A program made the position numbers and the translations under genes. This document shows positions 2,552 to 41,875 of a DNA stretch of 64,000 nucleotides, piece after piece. Under the pieces are notes generated by a model that searched no databases, was not told the DNA's origin, and saw only the letters and a list, made by a program, of their open reading frames with translations. Position 1 is the first letter of the stretch, and every line of letters begins with the position of its first letter. Location of the stretch: assembly GCA_943355005.1 (NCBI GenBank), contig CALRDV010000004.1, positions 7,898 to 71,897 of the forward strand. The letters are read 5' to 3'. This DNA comes from Patescibacteria group bacterium (GTDB taxonomy: Bacteria; Patescibacteriota; Microgenomatia; UBA1400; MFAQ01).

Positions 2552-5311
2552 ATGGCAGACTTGCCAAAAGGGCCAAATCAGCCCTCAATTAAACAGCCTT
2601 GGGCTCAAACCCCACACAGTGTTTTTAAACAACTGGATTCGAATCCAGCAGGTTTAAGCACTAAAGAGGCTGAACTTCGTCTGACCCAGTATGGGCAAAA
2701 CGCCTTACCTGAGAATGACGAAAAGACTACCTGGTGGGGTACCGTGAAAGAGACATTCGCTGAGAAGCTTCCGTTGATGCTTTTGGTATCGGCGATCATT
2801 TCAGCGATCCTCGGATTGTTAATGAAAGAACCTGATCGATTCAAGGACTTCATGTCTCTGTCCGTAATTCTCCTGTCTATGGCTATTGCCAACTACTTAA
2901 TGGGCAAAAACACAGACAAAGGCCTGGCTTCGCTCAAAAAGACATTGCAGAAAGCTATCAGGGTATATCGTGACGGCATAATCATCAAGTTACCTGTAAC
3001 ACAACTTGTTGTTGGTGACGTCATCTTTCTTTCTGAAGGTGATCTGATTCCTGCAGATGGCCGCATTATCGAAGCCACAAACGCGTCTGTAAATGAAGCC
3101 GTTTTGACTGGTGAGTCCGATGCTGTTGACAAAAGCGTTGTCCAGATCTCACACGAAGCCGAGCTTGCACGCAGATCGAATATGATCTTCATGAATACGT
3201 TTGTGAGTTCAGGAACGATCGTGGCTGTATTAACTGCCACAGCTCTTCAAACGGAAATGGGCAAAATCGCGACTGAAATCGAGAAAGCTGAAGAAACCAA
3301 GACTCCGCTGCAAAAACAGTTGGACGTACTTGGAATTGTTCTGTTGAATGCCACGCTCGTTGTCTGTGCTCTCGTTGCCGCGTTTTTCTTGTGGCGGGCT
3401 TACCCAATCTTTGTGGCAACCTACCAATACATCCAGGCCCATGGTCTGGCTGCATCAGGTGCCCAGATTGCTGAAAGCCTCACTGTTATTGCCGACATCT
3501 TCACTGTATCGGTTTCACTTGCCATTGCCTTCATCCCCGAAGCTTTGAGCGCAGTAATCATTCTTGCTCTGGCTATCGGCGTTGCTGAAATGGTAAAAGA
3601 AGGTGCAATTGTCAAAAACCCGAAAGGTGCCGAAGCGCTTGGTTCCGTCACGATTTTCAACTCTGACAAAACCGGTACTTTAACCAAGGGTGAAATGGCC
3701 ATCGTGTCTTTCTGGACTCCTAAAAATGGTGACGTAAGTGCCGAGACTGTCCTAAACGGTAACGGCCAGTTTGCTGCCATGAAAGAAGTCATGGCATTCT
3801 GTAACGATTTACACGATGCGACTGAACGTGCTCTGGCAGAATTTGTGGCTAGTGCTGGTTTCATAATCGGTGAAGCCACAATTAAAGATCGCAAACTGAC
3901 AATTCCTTTTACTTCTACTCGTAAACGCATGTCAGTAATCTTCGGAAACGGAACCCTGAAAATGTTAACCAAGGGTGCTCCTGAAGTTGTCTTGGAACTG
4001 TGTAGCGATCTACAGGGTGAAAGCCTTGAATCCATACAATTCATTGTAGACAGTCTGTCAGACGAGGGATATCGTGTATTGGCTTTGGCGGAACGAAATG
4101 CCGAAAGCGTGTCAGATGTCAGCGAAAGCGGTTTGACATTCCTTGGCTTGGTTGCCTTGATGGACCCACCTCGCCCTGAAGTGGTTGAAACCATTGCAAC
4201 GATCAAGATTGCCGGGGTTACCCCAGTGATGATCACAGGTGACAATGGAAGAACCGCTCAAACGATCGCCCGTCAGGTCGGTATACTTGACTCCGACAGC
4301 AAGGAAGATCAATTGATGTCTGGTCAGCAGCTAAACTCTGCGATCGGAAATCGTGCTTTTGAAAAAGTCGAAGATATCAAGAAAATGGTCAGCGCGAAAG
4401 TGCTCGAGCAAATCGCCAATGTCAGAGTTTTCTATCGCGTCTCACCGACCGACAAGAAAATTATCGTCATGTGCCAGCAAGCGCTCGGCAACATTGTCGC
4501 CATGACTGGTGATGGTGTCAATGACGCTCCTGCTTTAAAACAGGCGGATATCGGCGTTGCCATGGGCGACCGCGCTACTGAAGTCACAAAAGATGTCTCA
4601 GACATGATCCTGACCAAGGGTTATGCTGCCATCGCTCCTGCTATTCGCGTCGGCCGGACAATATTGATGCGAACCCGCCTCTACACTCACGCTCTTTTGA
4701 GCACAAATATGAGTGAGGTTGGTATTTTCATCTACGCCGCAGTCGTTGGTTGGTTGCCACCTTTGACATCTGTAATGCTTCTGGTAATCAACTTCCTTGG
4801 TGATGGTTGGCTCTCAATTGCTCTAGCCACAGAACCCTCGGAAAAAGACGTGATGACCCAAAAGCCTCGCCCCAGCACCGAAGCCGTAATTACGCCTTAC
4901 ATGTGGACCAGTATCGCCCTTCAAGGCGTTTTGGTTACCATTATCTTGGCGTACGTATTCAATTTTGCTGGAGTCTATGCCAACAACTTAGGCTTGGAAG
5001 GTACTAACGCGCTCAAGTTCCAACAGAGTCTGACCTTTGCCGCTTTCTTGGTCCAGAAAGTCGCCCGCTCAAGCTTTACCGCCCGTTCCCTCAAGTACAA
5101 TATTTGGGAATTTGGCTTCTTCACGAACAAATGGACACTGTTGGCAGGATTTACGACCGCCGTGATGGGTATCAGTTTCTTGGAAATCGGACCTTTGTCC
5201 AACTTCCTTGGAATGGTTTCTATTCCTGCAGGATTATGGCCGATGATATTAGGTCTCGGCATGATTCCGCCAGTCCTCGAAGAGGTGGTCAAGTTCGTTC
5301 GCCGGAAATAG
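2552..5311 (+). CDS. Cation-transporting P-type ATPase (type II, Ca2+/Mg2+-ATPase-like)
   Basis: 919 aa. It has the DKTGTLT phosphorylation motif, the MITGDN and GDGVNDAPALKQADIGVAMG hinge motifs, an N-terminal cation-ATPase domain and about 10 TM segments. GC content is clearly higher than in flanking genes. Confidence 0.9.
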   Translation: MADLPKGPNQPSIKQPWAQTPHSVFKQLDSNPAGLSTKEAELRLTQYGQNALPENDEKTTWWGTVKETFAEKLPLMLLVSAIISAILGLLMKEPDRFKDFMSLSVILLSMAIANYLMGKNTDKGLASLKKTLQKAIRVYRDGIIIKLPVTQLVVGDVIFLSEGDLIPADGRIIEATNASVNEAVLTGESDAVDKSVVQISHEAELARRSNMIFMNTFVSSGTIVAVLTATALQTEMGKIATEIEKAEETKTPLQKQLDVLGIVLLNATLVVCALVAAFFLWRAYPIFVATYQYIQAHGLAASGAQIAESLTVIADIFTVSVSLAIAFIPEALSAVIILALAIGVAEMVKEGAIVKNPKGAEALGSVTIFNSDKTGTLTKGEMAIVSFWTPKNGDVSAETVLNGNGQFAAMKEVMAFCNDLHDATERALAEFVASAGFIIGEATIKDRKLTIPFTSTRKRMSVIFGNGTLKMLTKGAPEVVLELCSDLQGESLESIQFIVDSLSDEGYRVLALAERNAESVSDVSESGLTFLGLVALMDPPRPEVVETIATIKIAGVTPVMITGDNGRTAQTIARQVGILDSDSKEDQLMSGQQLNSAIGNRAFEKVEDIKKMVSAKVLEQIANVRVFYRVSPTDKKIIVMCQQALGNIVAMTGDGVNDAPALKQADIGVAMGDRATEVTKDVSDMILTKGYAAIAPAIRVGRTILMRTRLYTHALLSTNMSEVGIFIYAAVVGWLPPLTSVMLLVINFLGDGWLSIALATEPSEKDVMTQKPRPSTEAVITPYMWTSIALQGVLVTIILAYVFNFAGVYANNLGLEGTNALKFQQSLTFAAFLVQKVARSSFTARSLKYNIWEFGFFTNKWTLLAGFTTAVMGISFLEIGPLSNFLGMVSIPAGLWPMILGLGMIPPVLEEVVKFVRRK

Positions 5312-5909: not shown

Positions 5910-5983
5910 GGGTCAGTAGCTCAGTCGGTTAGAGCACCTGCCTTTTAAGCAGGGTGTCGTGGGTTCGAGTCCCACCTGACCCA
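5910..5983 (+). tRNA. tRNA-Lys (anticodon TTT)
   Basis: 74-nt cloverleaf. Acceptor GGGTCAG pairs with CTGACCC, the anticodon loop is CTTTTAA, and the T-loop is TTCGAGT. No CCA is encoded. Confidence 0.85.
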
Positions 5984-6138
5984 CTATTCCATGTACTATG
6001 GCCTTGTGCCAAAGTACATGAAATAATAGTAAGTGAGGACTCGAACGGGCACAGTCACGACGGTGACGAGCCAGGTCCGAACAAAACTTGACCAGATGTT
6101 TATGTGAGGCGAGTCCCAAGTTTTTAAATTAACATGTT

Positions 6139-6211
6139 GGCCCCGTCGTCTAGTGGTTAGGACGTCAGGTTTTCATCCTGAATATCGCGGGTTCGAGTCC
6201 CGCCGGGGTCA
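6139..6211 (+). tRNA. tRNA-Glu (anticodon TTC)
   Basis: 73-nt cloverleaf. Acceptor GGCCCCG pairs with CGGGGTC, the anticodon stem is TCAGG/CCTGA with loop TTTTCAT, and the T-loop is TTCGAGT. Confidence 0.85.
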
Positions 6212-6221
6212 CAATAAAAAG

Positions 6222-6246
6222 AAGCTGGCTAGTCCAGCTTTTTTTA
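6222..6246 (+). terminator. Rho-independent terminator after the tRNA pair
   Basis: AAGCTGG pairs with CCAGCTT and is followed by a T5 run. Confidence 0.55.
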
Positions 6247-6354
6247 TTGTAAATTTGCGGAAGTCGAACAAGGCGTAGCTGATCTTGTAACAAGCTCAGC
6301 GAGCCCGGTCCTGAGGCGAATGAAATTCGACCGAAGGCGACTCCCGCCGCTATA

Positions 6355-6370
6355 TCCCGCCGGGGTCACA
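6355..6370 (+). repeat. 16-nt exact direct repeat of the tRNA-Glu 3' end (att-like remnant)
   Basis: TCCCGCCGGGGTCACA at 6198-6213 spans the tRNA 3' end and two nucleotides beyond it. It recurs at 6355-6370. A further partial copy, GACTCCCGCC, lies at 6339-6348. Confidence 0.6.
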
Positions 6371-6372
6371 AA

Positions 6373-7041
6373 TTGAAAAGATCGGCATTGAATACCGAGT
6401 GTTACAATACTCAAATGACCGAAATTGATAATAAATTTTCTTCGTTTAGAGAAAGATGGAATGGTAGAGCATCCACATGGGACACAGAGATATTAATGCC
6501 TGAACATTACGCCAATTTTGAGGAAGGATATCGGAAATTCCTTGATTTTGAAATAGTTGTTTTAGATGCTTTTCCAAAAGCACTGGTAGGAATTGATCTT
6601 GGTTGTGGTACAGGAATAGCAGCAGAACCTTTGTCAAAAAAGGTCGAGCAATTATTTCTATTGGATGTTGCTGAACAAATGCTTAAAGAGGCAAAGAAAA
6701 AATATCCTAACGCTGATATTTTCCATGAATCAGCGACGGCGATTCCGCTTGATGATAATTCGGTTGATGTGGCCGTTAGCCGTGGGGTGTTGATTTCGCA
6801 CTTACCTCAAGGAGAGTACAAAAACTTTTTAAGTGAAGTTCATCGAATTCTTAGGCCTGGAGGATTGTTTGTTTTTGATTTCCTTAATAATCTTGAAACT
6901 GCCGATTTTCACCTATCATCTGAAAAAACAGTATTTACCAGACAAGGTATCTCTGAAGAACTTAAGGAACATGGTTTTGGTGACTTGGTGTTTGATGGCC
7001 TAGATACAAATAGAGTATTGAGGGTGGCAACTGTTAAATAA
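6373..7041 (+). CDS. Class I SAM-dependent methyltransferase
   Basis: Motif I is VGIDLGCGTG. Post-I acidic residues, LRPGGLFVF and the DVAVS motifs follow. 222 aa. Confidence 0.6.
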   Translation: MKRSALNTECYNTQMTEIDNKFSSFRERWNGRASTWDTEILMPEHYANFEEGYRKFLDFEIVVLDAFPKALVGIDLGCGTGIAAEPLSKKVEQLFLLDVAEQMLKEAKKKYPNADIFHESATAIPLDDNSVDVAVSRGVLISHLPQGEYKNFLSEVHRILRPGGLFVFDFLNNLETADFHLSSEKTVFTRQGISEELKEHGFGDLVFDGLDTNRVLRVATVK

Positions 7042-30110: not shown

Positions 30111-30271
30111 ATGGTTAATTATAATTCTGTGTTCGGGATCAAAGACTTTGTCTTTGCCCTCACCCCCGCCTCGCTGGGCTTGTTACAAGACCAGCTCCGG
30201 CAATCTCTCATAAATTCTTAGTTTTTTGTTTATAACGATTTCCACAAGGAAAATGATTATAAACATAGAAT

Positions 30272-34176: not shown

Positions 34177-34253
34177 GGGGTTGTAGCTCAGTTGGTTAGA
34201 GCGCCCGCCTGTCACGCGGGAGGTCAAGGGTTCGAGTCCCTCCAGCCCCGCCA
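34177..34253 (+). tRNA. tRNA-Asp (anticodon GTC), CCA encoded
   Basis: Acceptor GGGGTTG pairs with CAGCCCC, the anticodon loop is CTGTCAC, the T-loop is TTCGAGT, and the 3' terminus is GCCA. Confidence 0.85.
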
Positions 34254-34256
34254 AAG

Positions 34257-34285
34257 AAAATCTCTCCCTAGTGGAGAGATTTTTT
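34257..34285 (+). terminator. Rho-independent terminator after tRNA-Asp
   Basis: TCTCTCC pairs with GGAGAGA across a CTAGT loop, followed by a T6 run. Confidence 0.6.
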
Positions 34286-34375
34286 ATGCCTAATTCTTGA
34301 CACTATAGGTTTTTTCTGGTATAATAATTTTCACTAGGTCTTTAAATCAACCAGACAATTTTCGGAGGCAATAGT

Positions 34376-34831
34376 ATGGATATTTTTTCAGCACCCACAA
34401 CCGTCTATCGAGTCGATGGGCCGCCCAATAGGGGCTTATGGTATAACCCCGATGGAAAGTTCGTCGGAGAAATTCACAACAACCTATCATTTTGCCACGC
34501 AAGTGCATTGGAAATGCCTTACGACAAAACCTTAGTGGGTTGGCGTTCTTGCACAGAGACGCTAGAAGATCTCCTGCTCTGGATTTCGTTAGAAGAGTTT
34601 GTCCAGCTTGAGAGTAGGGGTTTTAAGGCATCGGTTTACGAAGCTCATCAAACGAAAACCTATATTCACATAGACCATGCGACGGGGCTTCAAATGCCTC
34701 ACCTGGTCTTCAAGAAAGACGCAGCACGATTGATCCGTCTTCTCTCGGTTAGGGAACTTGGTCTTCAACTCGAGGAAGACAAGCTGATTTCTTCAATCAA
34801 CTTAAGCCAGCAACAAATAGTCCCTCGCTAG
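34376..34831 (+). CDS. Hypothetical protein (151 aa), GC-elevated
   Basis: ORF of about 46% GC against a local background of about 38%. No motif. A terminator hairpin at 34821-34845 overlaps the stop codon. Confidence 0.45.
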   Translation: MDIFSAPTTVYRVDGPPNRGLWYNPDGKFVGEIHNNLSFCHASALEMPYDKTLVGWRSCTETLEDLLLWISLEEFVQLESRGFKASVYEAHQTKTYIHIDHATGLQMPHLVFKKDAARLIRLLSVRELGLQLEEDKLISSINLSQQQIVPR

Positions 34832-34854
34832 TCGAGGGATTTTTATTGCATAGA

Positions 34855-34941
34855 GGGACTCGAAATGCCGGAGTCGAACCCGTAACTGTTTCGGCGAGGT
34901 GGGTCCGAGAGAATTCCGAAGGGATTACTCGAGGGAGTCTC
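34855..34941 (+). ncRNA. Candidate structured RNA element, copy A (unclassified)
   Basis: It shares the core ATGCCGGAG(T/C)CGAACCCGTAAC(T/G)GTTTCGGCGAGG and GGTC(C/T)CGA...GAGGG(G)AGTC with copy B at 41753-41831. The closing stem GGGACTC/GAGTCTC covaries with B's GTGGGAC/GTCCCAC. An internal hairpin carries a GTAAC loop. Confidence 0.3.
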
Positions 34942-34967
34942 GTTCCCCCCAGCCCTGAACTTTTTTA

Positions 34968-34998
34968 CAAAAAAATCCTCTCAAGAATGAGAGGATTT
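34968..34998 (-). terminator. Rho-independent terminator of the 498-aa minus-strand gene
   Basis: On the minus strand, ATCCTCTC pairs with GAGAGGAT and is followed by T7. Confidence 0.55.
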
Positions 34999-35014
34999 AT
35001 ACAAATTTGGAGAG

Positions 35015-36511
35015 TTAGGTTATGTCTATACGACCACTTTGATTCGCATCGCCGTAGACTGACCGTTTTTTGGCGTTAATTGGAGTGCGGTTTTGAGGCT
35101 GGACAGACCAACCATCCTCGTTTACCTTGGTTTCGAGTTCGTCACCCCGGATTACGGAATAACTCAAGACTGGGGTGGCAAAGCCATCCACGTCATCTAC
35201 GCCCAAAAAGCCACCCACGAGCCGGCAATCGAAGTTTGCACCATTTCCACCGTTGTCTGCTTTAAAATTGCGGCCTGCAAATTCGCCAGTTGACTGATGA
35301 CCATGATTCTTGCCATAGTTCAAGACAAAGGGGACGCTGCTCAGGTGAGCAGGAATATCCTCACGATGAATCCCCTCACCATATTGGCGCTTGAGATTGA
35401 CCTTCCAATCATAAAGATTTTCAGGTTTGGGGTATGGTGTCCCTGTGTGGAATTTGTAGTTGACAAACGAAGTGATCCAACCGTCCATGTCATCTACGCC
35501 CGAGCCAGAATAATGATTGTAAATGCTGGCCCAGAAAAAGTTATCAACTTCTTTGCGTCCGGCAACCGTATCGGCAATTTCCTGCAGTACGGGCAAAAGG
35601 TTCTTGAAGTAAAGCCCGAGATGCTCGGAGAAATAGCCGGATAATTTTGTGCAGGCGGACAGAATGTTGTCGTAGTCTTCCGGGGTACCGAACAAACGAA
35701 TGCTGGGAATACCACAACAAACTCGCATCAGCATATCGTAGAACGGACTCGCGGCATCCAACACTGCTACGATAGAGGCTGTCTGACTGGCAAGATCATG
35801 TGTGGAAATTTCGGGGAGCATGAACTTTAACAGATCCGAGGGCATCTGCGATTCCAAACCCTTGTGAAGCAGACCAATACCCGTTGCCCATGCTTCAGCC
35901 TGATCAAACTGAGCGATATCGATATCGTTCACTTGTACATCGATCAACTTCTTCTCAGCTGAATCGGTGAATAGGTACCGGTATGTTTCAGGATTCTGAC
36001 GGACACAGATGCCGATTTCGTGCAGCACCATCCACATAAGAGCTTCCGGACGTATACCTAGTGGATGATGGTTTGTGAAGCAATAGTGAACGGTGTTTAA
36101 AAACAAACTTGAAGCGGCTCCGATGGGCTTGTGTTCACTCTCGGGCAAGTCTTCACTGTGCCCGGCCGAAATGCATTCTTTACCTTGCCAGACTGGATTG
36201 ACCCAGCGGGAGGTTCGATACCCACGCATATCAAGTGAATCATTTTTTTCAATCAGCTGAATAACAGGTTTTGATGCTTCAGGAAAAAGAAGTTTCATCT
36301 TTTCCGTTATCGCCTCGTGAGCCAAATTACCGTGACGCTTAGGCAGAGGTTCTGCCACCACACCGGGATAGCCAGGACCCGGTTCCCAGTTAGGATCGAC
36401 CTCTCTTCGGTATTGCCATATCGGTAACTCTGAGCCTGGTACTTGATACTTTCCCAGATTGGGAATATAAACTTGTACTTCTTTTGCAACTTGAAGTTTC
36501 TTCATACACAC
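35015..36511 (-). CDS. Hypothetical protein (498 aa), GC-elevated
   Basis: Long ORF at roughly 48% GC; no recognisable catalytic motif. Confidence 0.5.
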   Translation of the reverse strand: MCMKKLQVAKEVQVYIPNLGKYQVPGSELPIWQYRREVDPNWEPGPGYPGVVAEPLPKRHGNLAHEAITEKMKLLFPEASKPVIQLIEKNDSLDMRGYRTSRWVNPVWQGKECISAGHSEDLPESEHKPIGAASSLFLNTVHYCFTNHHPLGIRPEALMWMVLHEIGICVRQNPETYRYLFTDSAEKKLIDVQVNDIDIAQFDQAEAWATGIGLLHKGLESQMPSDLLKFMLPEISTHDLASQTASIVAVLDAASPFYDMLMRVCCGIPSIRLFGTPEDYDNILSACTKLSGYFSEHLGLYFKNLLPVLQEIADTVAGRKEVDNFFWASIYNHYSGSGVDDMDGWITSFVNYKFHTGTPYPKPENLYDWKVNLKRQYGEGIHREDIPAHLSSVPFVLNYGKNHGHQSTGEFAGRNFKADNGGNGANFDCRLVGGFLGVDDVDGFATPVLSYSVIRGDELETKVNEDGWSVQPQNRTPINAKKRSVYGDANQSGRIDIT

Positions 36512-36757
36512 ATCTCCTTGTTCAACTGGATTGAATTGACTTAGCTAATTCAAAGAACTTGCCAATGAATGGCAGGCACATTTTACCCAATTTAAGTATT
36601 AAAATCAAGTTATGGGATTCTTACTTGTAATCATTACAATAAATTCAAGATTCGATTCAAACCTATAACTATCAGGTGTCCTATCTCCTCTTGCCCTGCT
36701 GAATATATGATCGTGCCTTTGTGTTTGGTATATTTAGAGCCGTGAGATAATTGTGGG

Positions 36758-37450
36758 ATGGATGAAGCTATAAAAAGATCTGAAAATATAGGTAAACGGT
36801 TAAAAACGGCTGCGCATGATTATGACCATTTTAATCGAGTTAGAAACTGGGTTGTTTTAATAGCTAAGGATGAAGGTCTGAATGAGAGAGGGAAGTTTCT
36901 ATTGGAAATATCAGCACTCTGGCATGATATGGCACTGGATAAGGTTACCGACCGATCAAAACATGGAGAAGTAGCCGGAGAAATGTTTTTGCATGAGTTT
37001 AAAGGTTACGATGTTTTTACCGAAAACGAGAAAGAAACTATCTTCTTTATGCTCAAATACCACGATAAAGCCAGATTGGTTAGAAATTCAAAAACGGATA
37101 AAAAACTTTTACAGATGCTAAATATCCTAACCGATGCCGACACTTTGGAGCTGCTTGGGGAACGAGGATACGAAAGAGCTCTTGAAACTGCAAGGGCAAA
37201 TAATTGGCCTAACTTTGATACTAATAATCCAAAAGGTGAAACCTATGGCTTTTCGGCCAAACAGTTTGATGAAAGATTCGAATTGACTAAAACAGGAAAG
37301 ATCAAACATGTAAAGGAACCGACTCTGGTTGGCTTGCTAAACTTTCTGATTAGCTGTGCCGATAATTTGTATTCCTCCAAGGCTAAAACGGTGGGGAAAG
37401 CCGGTGCAGATTATTTAAAAAGTAAAATTGACTACATTATTGGACAATAA
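36758..37450 (+). CDS. HD-domain phosphohydrolase
   Basis: The H..HD metal-binding motif (HDYDHFNRV ... LWHDMALD ... DADTLE) is present. 230 aa. It is a paralogue of the gene at 41876. Confidence 0.7.
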   Translation: MDEAIKRSENIGKRLKTAAHDYDHFNRVRNWVVLIAKDEGLNERGKFLLEISALWHDMALDKVTDRSKHGEVAGEMFLHEFKGYDVFTENEKETIFFMLKYHDKARLVRNSKTDKKLLQMLNILTDADTLELLGERGYERALETARANNWPNFDTNNPKGETYGFSAKQFDERFELTKTGKIKHVKEPTLVGLLNFLISCADNLYSSKAKTVGKAGADYLKSKIDYIIGQ

Positions 37451-37461
37451 ACGCGATATAT

Positions 37462-37866
37462 TTGACTATGGAAACTATAATCCCCACCATCAGACTGCAA
37501 CAATTTAGAAGTACTCCGAGATGGAGAAGGTCGCTCAGTGGACCTTTTATCTGGGCACCTTTTTTACCTATGCTTCTGTTGGATTTTTTTATGGAAATTT
37601 ATCACCATATTTGTTTTCCATTGTATGGTCTTAAGCTAATACCAAGAAAAAACTACTTTTTCTTTGATAGAACTGAACTTAATCTAAGCTGGTCGGAAAA
37701 GATTAGCTGTCATTATTGTGGCTATGCCAATGGACTGGCTGCATACATGGTAGCGATTGCAGGAGAGACCGAAGCTTACTGGTGTGCCATCAAACACAAG
37801 GAAAGATTAAGTTTGGAGACTCAGCCGCACACAAAGGACTTCATAGCTCAGGAAAAATTCAAGTAG
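37462..37866 (+). CDS. Hypothetical protein (134 aa)
   Basis: ORF with a central hydrophobic segment and a Cys/His pair (CHYCGY). Confidence 0.35.
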   Translation: MTMETIIPTIRLQQFRSTPRWRRSLSGPFIWAPFLPMLLLDFFMEIYHHICFPLYGLKLIPRKNYFFFDRTELNLSWSEKISCHYCGYANGLAAYMVAIAGETEAYWCAIKHKERLSLETQPHTKDFIAQEKFK

Positions 37867-37872
37867 ATAGTG

Positions 37873-38475
37873 TTATCTAAAAATTAGATATCCCATGACT
37901 GAACCGAGGAAAGTCAGAAGCAAATCCCAATTGGTATCGTGTACTCCTGGACCGATCATATAATTTCTTCTCATAGCAATATCCACCAATAATTCTCCCA
38001 TCTCGATTCCCACAGAAACCAAGTTGACAGTTAATAAAATGAAAAAGGCAACGGCAGAAGGATGCTGAAAAATAATCGGGAAAATAGTTACAAACCCTGT
38101 TAGTTCCAAGCCATAAAATAATAAAAAACCGGTAGCGAAGTGCTCAAATCTGTTATAAAGTGCTTTTTCTTTTTTTTGAACGAAGCCAAGGGTAAATTTA
38201 ATTAAGTTGCACCAAAATGCAATCAATAGAAGATAGAGATATGTCGATTTATCTAGGGAAGAGGAATTTGACAAAGTGCCCATTAGAATTAGCATTACCA
38301 CAAAGATACCTGCTCCAATAAGCCAACCTAAGCTCATTTGACTATTTTTGAAATTTATAACGCCCACGACTTGCAGTATCCCAAACAAGAAACCACATAT
38401 TATCAGAAAGATTGGGATGGATAACATAACTAATCCTAACATGGAATGCAGAAGCAAAGACATAGCTATTGACAT
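37873..38475 (-). CDS. Integral membrane protein (hypothetical, ~6 TM)
   Basis: Highly hydrophobic 200-aa ORF. Confidence 0.45.
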   Translation of the reverse strand: MSIAMSLLLHSMLGLVMLSIPIFLIICGFLFGILQVVGVINFKNSQMSLGWLIGAGIFVVMLILMGTLSNSSSLDKSTYLYLLLIAFWCNLIKFTLGFVQKKEKALYNRFEHFATGFLLFYGLELTGFVTIFPIIFQHPSAVAFFILLTVNLVSVGIEMGELLVDIAMRRNYMIGPGVHDTNWDLLLTFLGSVMGYLIFR

Positions 38476-38502
38476 TGATAAAAGTTTATATAAGATTGGA
38501 TT

Positions 38503-39168
38503 ATGAAAACAGGACAGAGTACAGAAAAACGTATTAAAAATATCCTAAAATTCTTCAAAATGAACGAGAATACTATCAGCACCCTAATGGGTGGAGTGGT
38601 GATTGTGGTGATTGCCGGACTGATTTTTAACTACTTTAGGACCGCAAACCTCAAAACATGGCAAGGAACATTACTTAATGATCAGGAAACGGCCCAGACA
38701 GAAAACAAGGATATATCCGCCAATGATAAGCTGGTTACCACCCATAAAGTTGTCAAAGGAGATGACCTCTGGCACATCGCAGAAAAATACTACAAGTCTG
38801 GCTATAACTATGTGGATATCATGAAAGAAAATAAAATTACCGGAAAGGGAATTATCACAGCAGGCATGGAGCTTAGAATTCCTAACGTTGAAGCTAAGAA
38901 ACTCACAGTTGTAGAAGTCAAAAAAGAAATAGCCATTTCAAAAACAGGTGATGTAGTAAAACAAGACGTAAAAGTGGCCGACTCTAAATCTATTGAAGTT
39001 GGTGAATACACGACTCAAAAAGGTGATTCTTACTGGAAGCTGGCAGTCCGAGCATATGGAGACGGATACAAATGGACAAAGATTTACTGGGCAAACAGAA
39101 AGTTGTTCGCAAAACCTGACATGATTCACGCGAACGTCAAAATCAACATCCCGGCTCTGGAAAAGTAA
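38503..39168 (+). CDS. LysM-domain peptidoglycan-binding protein (2 LysM repeats, N-terminal TM)
   Basis: Two LysM-like repeats: HKVVKGDDLWHIAEKYY...VDIMKENKI and YTTQKGDSYWKLAVRAYGDGYKWTKIYWANR. Confidence 0.7.
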   Translation: MKTGQSTEKRIKNILKFFKMNENTISTLMGGVVIVVIAGLIFNYFRTANLKTWQGTLLNDQETAQTENKDISANDKLVTTHKVVKGDDLWHIAEKYYKSGYNYVDIMKENKITGKGIITAGMELRIPNVEAKKLTVVEVKKEIAISKTGDVVKQDVKVADSKSIEVGEYTTQKGDSYWKLAVRAYGDGYKWTKIYWANRKLFAKPDMIHANVKINIPALEK

Positions 39169-41735: not shown

Positions 41736-41752
41736 TAATTTTGACAATTTGG

Positions 41753-41831
41753 GTGGGACGAGGAATGCCGGAGCCGAACCCGTAACGGTTTCGGCGAGGC
41801 CGGTCTCGAACAAAAGTGAGGGGAGTCCCAC
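41753..41831 (+). ncRNA. Candidate structured RNA element, copy B (possible cis-regulatory leader of HD gene)
   Basis: Closing stem GTGGGAC/GTCCCAC. The core ATGCCGGAGCCGAACCCGTAACGGTTTCGGCGAGG forms a 9-bp hairpin with loop GTAAC. The element ends 45 nt before the HD-gene ATG. Confidence 0.3.
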
Positions 41832-41875
41832 AAATTAAGGGTAGGGTCCCAAAAATAGTTAGAGTAAAATTAACC

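What the first reader, a model, noticed from the sequence alone, without database searches (positions are those of the whole stretch)
34254..36511. GC-elevated islet adjacent to tRNA-Asp encoding two unrecognisable proteins
The 151-aa and 498-aa ORFs at 34376-34831 and 35015-36511 are about 46-48% GC against a local background of about 36-40%. They lie immediately 3' of tRNA-Asp, a classic integration hotspot. They are convergent and terminator-bounded, and they flank structured element A. Neither protein shows any motif I can place. The pattern suggests horizontally acquired cargo of unknown function.
Basis: partly seen in the sequence, partly recalled or inferred. Interest (0 to 1): 0.5.

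Follow-up and report, generated by a model that had tools for sequence, protein, structure and literature searches.

The report
Variable gene slot beside tRNA-Asp
Two separately transcribed genes from virus-associated families of unknown function sit in a fast-changing slot next to the tRNA-Asp gene of a Collierbacteria (candidate phyla radiation) genome, which is an ordinary accessory-gene hotspot, although it also holds a copy of an undescribed structured RNA that normally follows tRNA genes in this lineage.

Summary
The features exist as described: tRNA-Asp, two convergent ORFs with their own terminators, and a structured element between them. The GC rise is real but modest: 46.7-47.8% against a window mean of 41.4%, about 2 sd. 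GC-normalised tetranucleotide and codon usage are not outliers.

Both proteins can be placed. The 496-aa one is Pfam DUF4419. The 151-aa one is PHROG 23161, a small phage protein family with a weak ADP-ribosyltransferase-like fold.

The host is a Candidatus Collierbacteria. Across Microgenomates the order HtpX-LemA-tRNA-Asp-LysM is conserved, and tRNA-Asp and LysM are often only 59-190 nt apart. Here 4.25 kb lie between them.

None of 80 related loci has DUF4419 there, and one has the 151-aa gene. A further metagenome contig has an 83% identical DUF4419 in the same slot. One relative carries an intact tyrosine-integrase island at this tRNA-Asp.

The window itself has no integrase and no att repeat, and the two genes occur independently elsewhere. 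Verdict: a decayed, mosaic accessory slot, not one islet, with biochemical function unresolved.

Element A belongs to a covarying RNA family, absent from Rfam, that normally lies 40-49 nt after tRNA genes.

The parts
34177..34253 (+). tRNA-Asp (GTC). It is the conserved left border of the variable slot.
   Evidence: ARAGORN. Rfam tRNA, 67.4 bits. Conserved next to RRM/LemA/HtpX in relatives.
34252..34288 (+). Terminator hairpin T1 directly after tRNA-Asp (TCTCTCC-CTAGT-GGAGAGA followed by a T run).
   Evidence: Inverted repeat I3. Terminator scan. Orthologous hairpins follow tRNA-Asp in relatives.
34297..34325 (+). Consensus sigma-70-type promoter (TTGACA-17-TATAAT with TG) for the 151-aa gene.
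   Evidence: 12 of 12 match. The homologues in L003 and L004 carry the same kind of promoter.
34376..34831 (+). ORF151, a small phage-family protein (PHROG 23161 / 1106). It may have an ADP-ribosyltransferase-like fold.
34819..34841 (+). Terminator hairpin T2. It overlaps the ORF151 stop codon and resembles T1: same CTAGT loop, with two compensatory stem changes.
   Evidence: Terminator scan, both strands. The T1/T2 comparison was made by eye on the sequence.
34851..34947 (+). 'Element A', one copy of a Y-shaped structured RNA family that normally starts 40-49 nt after a tRNA gene. Here the ORF151 cassette has displaced it 598 nt from tRNA-Asp.
   Evidence: Model R1, 71.1 bits, E 5.9e-14. Covariation. 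Position statistics. No Rfam match.
34973..34998 (-). Terminator hairpin of the DUF4419 gene (11-bp stem plus T run).
   Evidence: Terminator scan. Inverted repeat I15.
35015..36505 (-). DUF4419 protein gene (496 aa).
36580..36608 (-). Promoter-like site upstream of the DUF4419 gene (TTGATT-17-TAAAAT, 9 of 12).
   Evidence: Promoter scan. 68 nt upstream of the start codon are conserved with L108.
36758..38475 (.). The rest of the inserted slot: HD-domain gene (36758-37450 +), 134-aa gene (37462-37866 +) and 200-aa membrane-like gene (37873-38475 -). All are of low GC (36-40%).
   Evidence: Pfam HD at E 1.1e-4. Only the 134-aa gene has a homologue in relatives (L004, 78%). The HD and 200-aa genes are absent from the 80 related loci.
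38503..39168 (+). LysM-domain gene. It is the conserved right border of the slot.
   Evidence: Pfam LysM. It lies 59-190 nt from tRNA-Asp in many Microgenomates.

Best explanation
The finding is the GC-richer part of a 4.25-kb hypervariable slot (34254-38502) between tRNA-Asp and the LysM gene of a Candidatus Collierbacteria genome.

The slot is a mosaic of single-gene cassettes. Each has its own promoter and terminator. They were gained and lost independently from a gene pool shared with phages and other integrated elements.

The likely route of entry is inferred, not shown for this window. It is site-specific integration at the 3' half of tRNA-Asp by tyrosine-integrase elements, as seen intact in a relative, followed by loss of the integrase and att repeats and by local reshuffling.

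ORF151 is a member of a small phage protein family (PHROG 23161). Its best functional guess is an NAD-using or ADP-ribosyltransferase-like modifier acting in phage-host conflict (probability about 0.3).

The 496-aa protein is a DUF4419 member. This family is typical of huge phages, giant viruses, fungi and amoebae, and has no known fold relative. Its invariant His146, Cys264 (in a CGIP motif) and Asp277 suggest an enzyme, but this is a guess.

The two genes are not a functional pair.
For: Lineage and synteny:
- HtpX is 81-88% identical to Collierbacteria MAGs.
- HtpX-LemA-(RRM)-tRNA-Asp-[slot]-LysM-tRNA-Thr is conserved in 80 loci. The slot is 59-190 nt in many Microgenomates and 0.2-6 kb with different contents in Collierbacteria.

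Patchiness:
- DUF4419 is in none of the 80 loci, and ORF151 is only in L004 at 58% identity.
- L108 has an 83% identical DUF4419 in the same slot and orientation, but with other genes between it and LysM.

Independence of the two genes:
- ORF151 homologues occur without DUF4419 in L003 and L004.
- DUF4419 occurs without ORF151 in L001 and L084-L087.

Mobile and viral pool:
- phrog_23161.
- ORF151 relatives lie in arrays of small genes in Cellulophaga, Lactococcus and Rhizobium phages.
- DUF4419 occurs in a 368-kb phage-like contig, in huge phages, and in IMG/VR contigs of 200-900 kb. It also lies next to a large serine recombinase in L085.
- The literature reports DUF4419 in amoebae, giant viruses and LbFV (PMC7125106, PMC5381508).

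Integration at this tRNA:
- L010 has tRNA-Asp, then a PF00589 integrase, then 5.8 kb, then a 45-nt repeat of the tRNA 3' half.
- One L010 island gene is 89% identical to the gene next to DUF4419 in L001. An L026 slot gene is 53% identical to the neighbour of the ORF151 homologue in L003.

Insertion geometry:
- Element A lies 40-49 nt after its tRNA in 15 of 21 copies. It is displaced by the ORF151 cassette here and by the island in L010.

Separate promoters and terminators.
Against: - The window has no integrase, recombinase or phage structural gene in the slot.
- There is no direct repeat of the tRNA-Asp 3' end with up to 3 mismatches.
- Composition is only mildly atypical. The GC excess is a family trait wherever these genes sit, so it does not date a transfer.
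- DUF4419 (83%) and the flanking LysM (79%) have diverged to a similar extent between the window and L108. This fits long residence and vertical descent with losses as well as it fits repeated gain.
- The relatives are MAG contigs, so absence elsewhere in those genomes could not be tested.
Confidence: 0.65

Rival explanations
1. These are ancestral, vertically inherited Collierbacteria genes. The GC rise reflects protein composition and constraint, and the patchiness reflects loss in a decaying region of a reduced genome. No horizontal acquisition is needed.
For: - Tetranucleotide signature is ordinary and ORF151 codon usage is ordinary.
- DUF4419 is GC-richer than its surroundings in all 7 contexts. 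In L001 its GC3 (0.378) equals the background, so the excess there comes from codon positions 1 and 2.
- DUF4419 at 83% and LysM at 79% between the window and L108 suggest co-divergence.
- ORF151 is next to tRNA-Asp in L004.
Against: - The slot is only 59-190 nt in many Microgenomates and holds unrelated genes in the closest relatives.
- Homologues sit in unrelated contexts, next to recombinases, and in phage genomes.
- GC3 of both genes in the window is about 1.8-1.9 sd above the mean.
- ORF151 lies on opposite sides of element A in the window and in L004.
Confidence: 0.2
2. The stretch is the remnant of a single prophage or integrative element that brought both genes in one event and has since lost its integrase and att sites.
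For: - Both families are virus-associated.
- Both genes share a similar GC.
- An integrase island sits at the same tRNA in L010.
Against: - The two genes never co-occur in any other locus seen.
- Element A, which is ancestrally attached to the tRNA, lies between them. They were therefore inserted on different sides of an ancestral landmark.
- No close viral relative of either gene was found: at most 42% identity for DUF4419 and none for ORF151 in IMG/VR.
Confidence: 0.1
3. The two genes form a two-component conflict system, either toxin-antitoxin or anti-phage defence. ORF151 would be an ART-like toxin or effector and DUF4419 its partner.
Against: - The genes are convergent, with separate promoters and terminators.
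- They occur independently elsewhere.
- Neither has a PADLOC hit.
- The structural signal is weak.
Confidence: 0.04

Closest known systems
tRNA-proximal flexible genomic islands built by successive site-specific integrations, such as Islander/TIGER-type islands and the tycheposon-fed islands of Prochlorococcus (bioRxiv 10.1101/2020.12.28.424599; PMC9580842)
   Same: - Location immediately 3' of a tRNA gene in a streamlined genome.
- Sporadic gene content among close relatives.
- Cargo shared between islands.
- An intact integrase element with a partial-tRNA repeat at the same tRNA in a relative (L010).
- Degenerate remains in other genomes.
   Different: - The window has no integrase, no partial tRNA-Asp repeat and no replication or excision genes.
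- The slot is very small (4.25 kb).
- It consists of single-gene units, each with its own promoter and terminator.
Pfam PF14388 (DUF4419)
   Same: Full-length domain match at 148.6 bits against a 25-bit cut-off. The family's invariant H, R, CGIP, D, FW and GW positions are present.
   Different: This subfamily has an N-terminal beta-rich extension of about 130 aa and a C-terminal extension of about 90 aa outside the Pfam model. The family has no known function or solved structure.
PHROG 23161 / PHROG 1106 (phage proteins of unknown function)
   Same: The HMM matches ORF151 and all 64 aligned relatives. Relatives lie in arrays of small genes of lytic phages.
   Different: Here the gene is chromosomal in a CPR bacterium, stands alone with a consensus promoter, and carries a 25-aa C-terminal helix or extension that runs into the terminator.
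ADP-ribosyltransferase-fold superfamily (R-S-E toxins, RES/MbcT, DarT, AcrF11, Tpt1)
Cis-mobilizable elements and partial-tRNA att remnants (compared with element A)
   Same: Element A ends with a direct copy (up to 21 nt) of the 3' end of the tRNA upstream, as an attR remnant would.
   Different: - It has a conserved Y-shaped fold with many compensatory changes.
- Its 5' strand is complementary to the tRNA T-loop and T-stem.
- It occurs behind four different tRNAs with the same body.
- It has no Rfam family.

Membership tests
Pfam DUF4419 (PF14388) | HMM score above the curated gathering threshold (25 bits) | tested here: met
   148.6 bits, E 3.6e-43, profile positions 3-271 of 303. All 28 homologues carry PF14388.
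PHROG 23161 | Significant match to the family HMM over most of its length | tested here: met
   E 3.4e-21, profile positions 6-111 of 120. All 64 of 64 aligned relatives match.
tRNA-integrated genomic island (integrase-mediated) | Lies directly 3' of a tRNA gene | tested here: met
   The slot starts one terminator hairpin after tRNA-Asp 34177-34253.
tRNA-integrated genomic island (integrase-mediated) | Integrase or recombinase gene within the island | tested here: not met
   Pfam on all slot ORFs finds no PF00589 or resolvase. By contrast, L010 has PF00589 next to its tRNA-Asp.
tRNA-integrated genomic island (integrase-mediated) | Direct repeat of the tRNA 3' part at the distal end (att) | tested here: not met
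   No second match to GAGTCCCTCCAGCCCCGC with up to 3 mismatches in 64 kb. Only the degenerate tRNA-like end of element A exists. L010 has a clear 45-nt repeat.
tRNA-integrated genomic island (integrase-mediated) | Sporadic presence among close relatives | tested here: met
   DUF4419 in 0 of 80 and ORF151 in 1 of 80 syntenic loci. Slot contents differ in every Collierbacteria locus. L108 shares DUF4419.
tRNA-integrated genomic island (integrase-mediated) | Nucleotide composition atypical for the host | tested here: inconclusive
   GC is about +2 sd. Tetranucleotide z is -0.65 and codon-usage ranks are 7 and 27 of 61. The GC excess is family-intrinsic.
ADP-ribosyltransferase-fold superfamily (ORF151) | Significant structural similarity to ART catalytic domains | tested here: inconclusive
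ADP-ribosyltransferase-fold superfamily (ORF151) | Catalytic signature R-S-E or H-Y-E | tested here: inconclusive
   R12 is invariant and S58 is at least 90% conserved. No invariant Glu is present: position 89 or 92 is E/D in many members but Q92 here. No Pfam ART family matches even at E 10.
Known anti-phage defence or toxin-antitoxin systems (PADLOC) | Match of components to system HMMs | tested here: not met
   No PADLOC family for ORF151, DUF4419, the HD gene or the 134-aa gene.
Any Rfam RNA family (element A) | Covariance-model match | tested here: not met
   Only tRNAs reach gathering scores in the window. Nothing at E <= 5 covers 34842-34972 except a chance terminator match.

The most novel reading that the evidence does not exclude
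Element A, inside the finding's coordinates, would be a member of a new class of tRNA-linked structured RNA or miniature element in Collierbacteria.

It is a Y-shaped RNA of about 95 nt placed 40-49 nt after tRNA genes. Its outer stem is built from an inverted and a direct copy of the 3' end of whichever tRNA lies upstream.

It could be a tiny integrase-mobilised or retro-mobile element, or a processing or decoy RNA. It may define the boundary where cargo such as ORF151 and the L010 island is inserted.
Probability: 0.3. Interest if true: 0.7.

Novelty: new member of a known kind. Interest (0 to 1): 0.35.

Why it matters
For the islet itself, it documents that even the very small genomes of CPR/Patescibacteria keep a tRNA-proximal accessory-gene hotspot. 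That hotspot exchanges single genes with phages and integrase elements. Two orphan-looking proteins are now assigned to families (DUF4419 and PHROG 23161). Those families span huge phages, giant viruses and eukaryotes, so they are reasonable targets for functional work on virus-host conflict.

The more interesting by-product is the tRNA-linked structured RNA family. If real, it is an undescribed RNA or mobile element. It is also a handy landmark for detecting insertions next to tRNA genes in this lineage.

Tried and rejected
- Rfam, at gathering and at E <= 5, found nothing for element A.
- PADLOC gave no hit for the slot proteins.
- NCBIfam gave only a chance RoxB hit.
- HMM against PDB sequences found nothing for either family.
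- Foldseek against PDB for ORF151 found nothing.
- The AFDB50 library was unavailable.
- Pfam at E 10 on 64 ORF151 relatives gave no ART family.
- att search found no tRNA-Asp 3' repeat. Short repeats are chance-level, apart from the inverted T-arm pieces that belong to element A.
- I first read the inverted T-arm-like pieces at 34853-34886 as a tRNA pseudogene on the minus strand. I rejected this after finding the covarying family in tRNA orientation.
- The exact-protein lookup of P0001 found no contig. The contigs carrying P0003 hold no DNA, so the convergent gene 127 nt downstream of that DUF4419 could not be identified.
- Scans of IMG/VR and the JGI metagenomes for close ORF151 relatives found none. 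The broad ORF151 alignment was too divergent to scan with.
- An 18-nt repeat flanking the DUF4419 block in L001 (D6) is of chance quality and was not used.
- A functional ORF151-DUF4419 pair was rejected for lack of co-occurrence.
Full report
**What is in the sequence**

tRNA-Asp(GTC) lies at 34177-34253 +. It is followed by a terminator hairpin, T1, at 34252-34288.

A perfect TTGACA-17-TATAAT promoter (34297-34325), a GGAGG ribosome-binding site and a 151-aa ORF (34376-34831 +) come next. They end in a second hairpin, T2, at 34819-34841.

Then comes a structured element of about 97 nt (34851-34947). After it lies the terminator (34998-34973) of a gene on the minus strand. The ATG at 36505 gives 496 aa, identical to a database protein.

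**Composition**

- The window is 41.4% GC. Called ORFs average 40.9% (sd 3.2) and GC3 averages 39.4% (sd 5.2).
- The two ORFs are 46.7% and 47.8% GC (z 1.8 and 2.1), with GC3 of 49.3% and 48.7% (z 1.9 and 1.8).
- As a 2.26-kb block the stretch is the second GC-richest of the window (z 2.3), after the region around a 919-aa ATPase gene at 2552-5311.
- After normalising for base composition, its tetranucleotide pattern correlates with the window as well as most windows do: r 0.685 against a mean of 0.743, z -0.65.
- By a Karlin-type codon-bias measure, with an expectation matched for length and amino-acid composition, ORF151 ranks 27th of 61 and the long ORF 7th of 61, among housekeeping genes.

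DUF4419 genes are GC-richer than their surroundings in all seven contexts I could measure, by 4.4 to 11.6 points. This includes a phage genome, and also a contig where GC3 equals the background. ORF151 homologues are 4-6 points richer. The GC rise is therefore real but modest, and it is largely a property of the gene families.

**The proteins**

*The 496-aa protein* is a clear DUF4419 member: PF14388, 148.6 bits, E 3.6e-43, residues 137-403.
- The word-indexed search found 28 homologues, the best at 71% identity.
- Their alignment shows invariant H146, R176, T235, C264-G-I-P267, G273, D277, F324-W325, S335-G336 and G342-W343.
- The literature mentions the family only in passing: in an amoeba with suspected transfer to Catovirus and Tupanvirus (PMC7125106), and as ORF1 of the wasp virus LbFV (PMC5381508).

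*The 151-aa protein* has no Pfam match.
- An exhaustive HMMER search found 124 relatives that share a core of about 95 aa.
- All 64 aligned relatives match phrog_23161, and the window protein does so at E 3.4e-21.
- tblastn finds it in Cellulophaga phages phi17:2 and phi4:1 (38% identity, 2e-18), in Lactococcus P087-like phages and in Rhizobium phage RHEph10. In those checked (Cellulophaga phi17:2_18, Lactococcus LW33) it lies within arrays of small hypothetical genes.
- Foldseek, Pfam at E 10 and HMM against PDB give nothing. No invariant Glu accompanies the invariant R12 and the near-invariant S58.
- I treat the ART-like reading as a lead with a probability of about 0.3.

**Whose genome, and what relatives have at this place**

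The flanking HtpX protein is 81-88% identical to proteins of Candidatus Collierbacteria MAGs (Microgenomates, Patescibacteria/CPR).

I mapped the window's proteins and tRNAs onto 80 related loci. This shows a deeply conserved order: HtpX-LemA-(RRM)-tRNA-Asp-[slot]-LysM-(tRNA-Gly)-tRNA-Thr.

In many Microgenomates, LysM lies only 59-190 nt from tRNA-Asp (for example L027, L030, L046, L052, L062, L070 and L080). In Collierbacteria the slot is 0.2-6 kb and holds different genes in every genome. In the window it is 4.25 kb (34254-38502) and holds ORF151, element A, DUF4419, an HD-domain gene, a 134-aa gene and a 200-aa gene.

- None of the 80 loci has DUF4419, the HD gene or the 200-aa gene.
- Only L004 has ORF151 (58% identity) and the 134-aa gene (78%). 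L004 is a close relative, with HtpX at 88% and RRM at 99%.
- L006 and L072 have the NRAMP gene next to tRNA-Asp.
- A later metagenome scan found L108. There an 83% identical DUF4419 (N-terminal 213 aa, at the contig end) lies in the same orientation relative to a 79% identical LysM. An epimerase-like gene and a 152-aa gene lie in between, instead of the HD, 134-aa and 200-aa genes.

So both genes are shared with a relative at this slot, yet both are absent from most relatives.

**Evidence for a mobile gene pool and for integration at this tRNA**

L010 (Collierbacteria RIFOXYD2_FULL_45_13) has, directly after tRNA-Asp, a tyrosine integrase (PF00589, E 3.2e-17). It is followed by 5.8 kb of cargo and then a 45-nt direct repeat of the tRNA-Asp 3' half, followed by the usual terminator and element A. 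This is a textbook integrated island at the same site.

- One of its genes (257 aa) is 89% identical to the gene immediately downstream of the 71% DUF4419 homologue in L001.
- A slot gene of L026 is 53% identical to the neighbour of the ORF151 homologue in L003.

DUF4419 homologues sit in unrelated neighbourhoods:
- L001: 3' of a tRNA-Glu, with a truncated second tRNA-Glu copy nearby.
- L084: two tandem paralogues.
- L085: beside a large serine recombinase, a methyltransferase and a T4SS pilin.
- L087: a 368-kb contig with RNR, dUTPase, Acb2/Tad1 and a T4-type prohead protease, which I read as a jumbo phage.
- Huge phages LR756501, LR756503 and LR756511.
- IMG/VR contigs of 200-900 kb, at 22-42% identity.

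The ORF151 homologue in L003 stands alone with the same kind of consensus promoter, in another context and without a tRNA.

The two genes thus have independent histories. No PADLOC system matches them.

**What the window lacks**

There is no integrase or recombinase in the slot. There is no second copy of the tRNA-Asp 3' end. No close viral donor was found. How these particular cassettes entered is therefore inferred, not shown.

T1 and T2 look like diverged duplicates: the same CTAGT loop, with two compensatory stem changes (by eye on the sequence). The ORF151 reading frame runs into T2. This hints that the cassette was inserted between the tRNA and its original terminator-element A unit, with duplication of the hairpin. 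That is a hint only.

**Element A**

It is not a tRNA remnant on the minus strand, as I first thought from the inverted T-arm-like 12-mer and 17-mer.

nhmmer, an alignment and a covariance model show a family with 21 copies in the held loci. All are in Collierbacteria-level sequences, and five are in the window: 6032-6123, 6255-6350, 30117-30213 (-), 34851-34947 and 41752-41835.

- Fifteen copies start 40-49 nt after a tRNA gene (Asp, Thr, Glu or Lys), on the same strand and just past its terminator. Two more are second tandem copies.
- The fold is Y-shaped: an outer stem plus two hairpin arms.
- On the model alignment, 95.6% of cells pair. There are 80 double-sided changes against 22.8 in shuffles, and at most 46% pairing when partners are slid. 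The alignment is fitted to the model, so these numbers lean towards the structure. However, RNAalifold on an independent MAFFT alignment already gave 12 of 15 covarying pairs.
- The sense strand folds better in 17 of 17 copies.
- The 5' strand of the outer stem is the reverse complement of the upstream tRNA's T-loop and T-stem (up to 13 nt).
- The 3' strand and tail are a direct copy of that tRNA's 3' end: up to 21 nt in L007-Thr, 18 nt in L011 and L017 Asp, and 15 nt for the window's tRNA-Glu copy.
- Rfam has no such family.

Of the four copies not within 200 nt of a tRNA, three lie beyond an insertion: the window's Asp copy (598 nt away, behind the ORF151 cassette) and the two tandem copies in L010 (behind the integrase island). 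The fourth, 30117-30213, has no tRNA upstream. Within this finding I use the element as an ancestral landmark, and it shows that ORF151 is an insertion.

In L004 the ORF151 homologue lies on the other side of the element. So the two genomes acquired or rearranged it differently. What the element does is unresolved.

**Conclusion**

The finding is the GC-richer part of a mosaic, decayed accessory slot next to tRNA-Asp in a Collierbacteria genome.

- It is not a single islet. It has no integrase or att sites, and the two proteins are recognisable members of families of unknown function.
- As a kind of thing it is known: a tRNA-proximal flexible island, as described for other streamlined genomes (bioRxiv 10.1101/2020.12.28.424599).
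- The most novel item is the tRNA-linked structured RNA family, of which element A is a displaced copy.

Noticed in passing
window 6032-6123 +, 6255-6350 +, 30117-30213 -, 34851-34947 +, 41752-41835 +; also L004-L007, L010, L011, L015-L017, L026, L053, L072: A family of about 95-nt Y-shaped structured elements that usually starts 40-49 nt after a tRNA gene (Lys, Glu, Asp, Thr), just past its terminator. The outer stem is made of an inverted and a direct copy of the 3' end of the tRNA upstream, while the body is shared. Covariation is strong and there is no Rfam family. The copy at 30117-30213 lies after htpX and has no tRNA upstream.
   Followed up: partly
L010 958-7114 (Candidatus Collierbacteria RIFOXYD2_FULL_45_13, MFAS01000001.1): An intact integrated island at tRNA-Asp. 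It holds a tyrosine integrase (5947-6948 -) and 5.8 kb of cargo. A 45-nt direct repeat of the tRNA-Asp 3' half lies at about 1265-1310, followed by two tandem copies of element A.
   Followed up: partly
L016 1594-1790: The element A copy after tRNA-Thr is flanked on both sides by a repeat of about 45 nt that contains the tRNA terminator hairpin (GAGAGTTTTGCCCTTGTGGCAAGACTCTTATTTTGTAACT). This looks like a target duplication or a tandem duplication.
   Followed up: no
L001 13503-13730: Next to the 71% DUF4419 homologue, an intact tRNA-Glu(CTC) is preceded 148 nt upstream by a second tRNA-Glu copy truncated in the T-loop. A small GIY-YIG-like ORF lies between the tRNA and the DUF4419 block.
   Followed up: no
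window 2552-5311 +: The GC-richest region of the window (47.9%) is a 919-aa ATPase gene (phrog_12316, E 3.8e-142). It has the most deviant codon usage (z 7.9) and tetranucleotide pattern in the window, more so than the finding itself.
   Followed up: no
L087 (GCA_040384165.1, JAWVHB010000045.1, 368 kb): A DUF4419 homologue (51% identity) lies in what looks like a jumbo phage genome, with RNR, dUTPase, an Acb2/Tad1-like gene and a T4-type prohead protease.
   Followed up: no
L084 6033-9557: Two DUF4419 paralogues (387 and 518 aa, about 38% identical to each other's relatives) lie in tandem. Both are much GC-richer (56-58%) than their contig (47%).
   Followed up: no
window 34252-34288 and 34819-34848: The terminator after tRNA-Asp and the terminator of ORF151 share the loop CTAGT and the T-tail context. 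Their stems differ by compensatory changes, as if one were a diverged duplicate of the other.
   Followed up: partly
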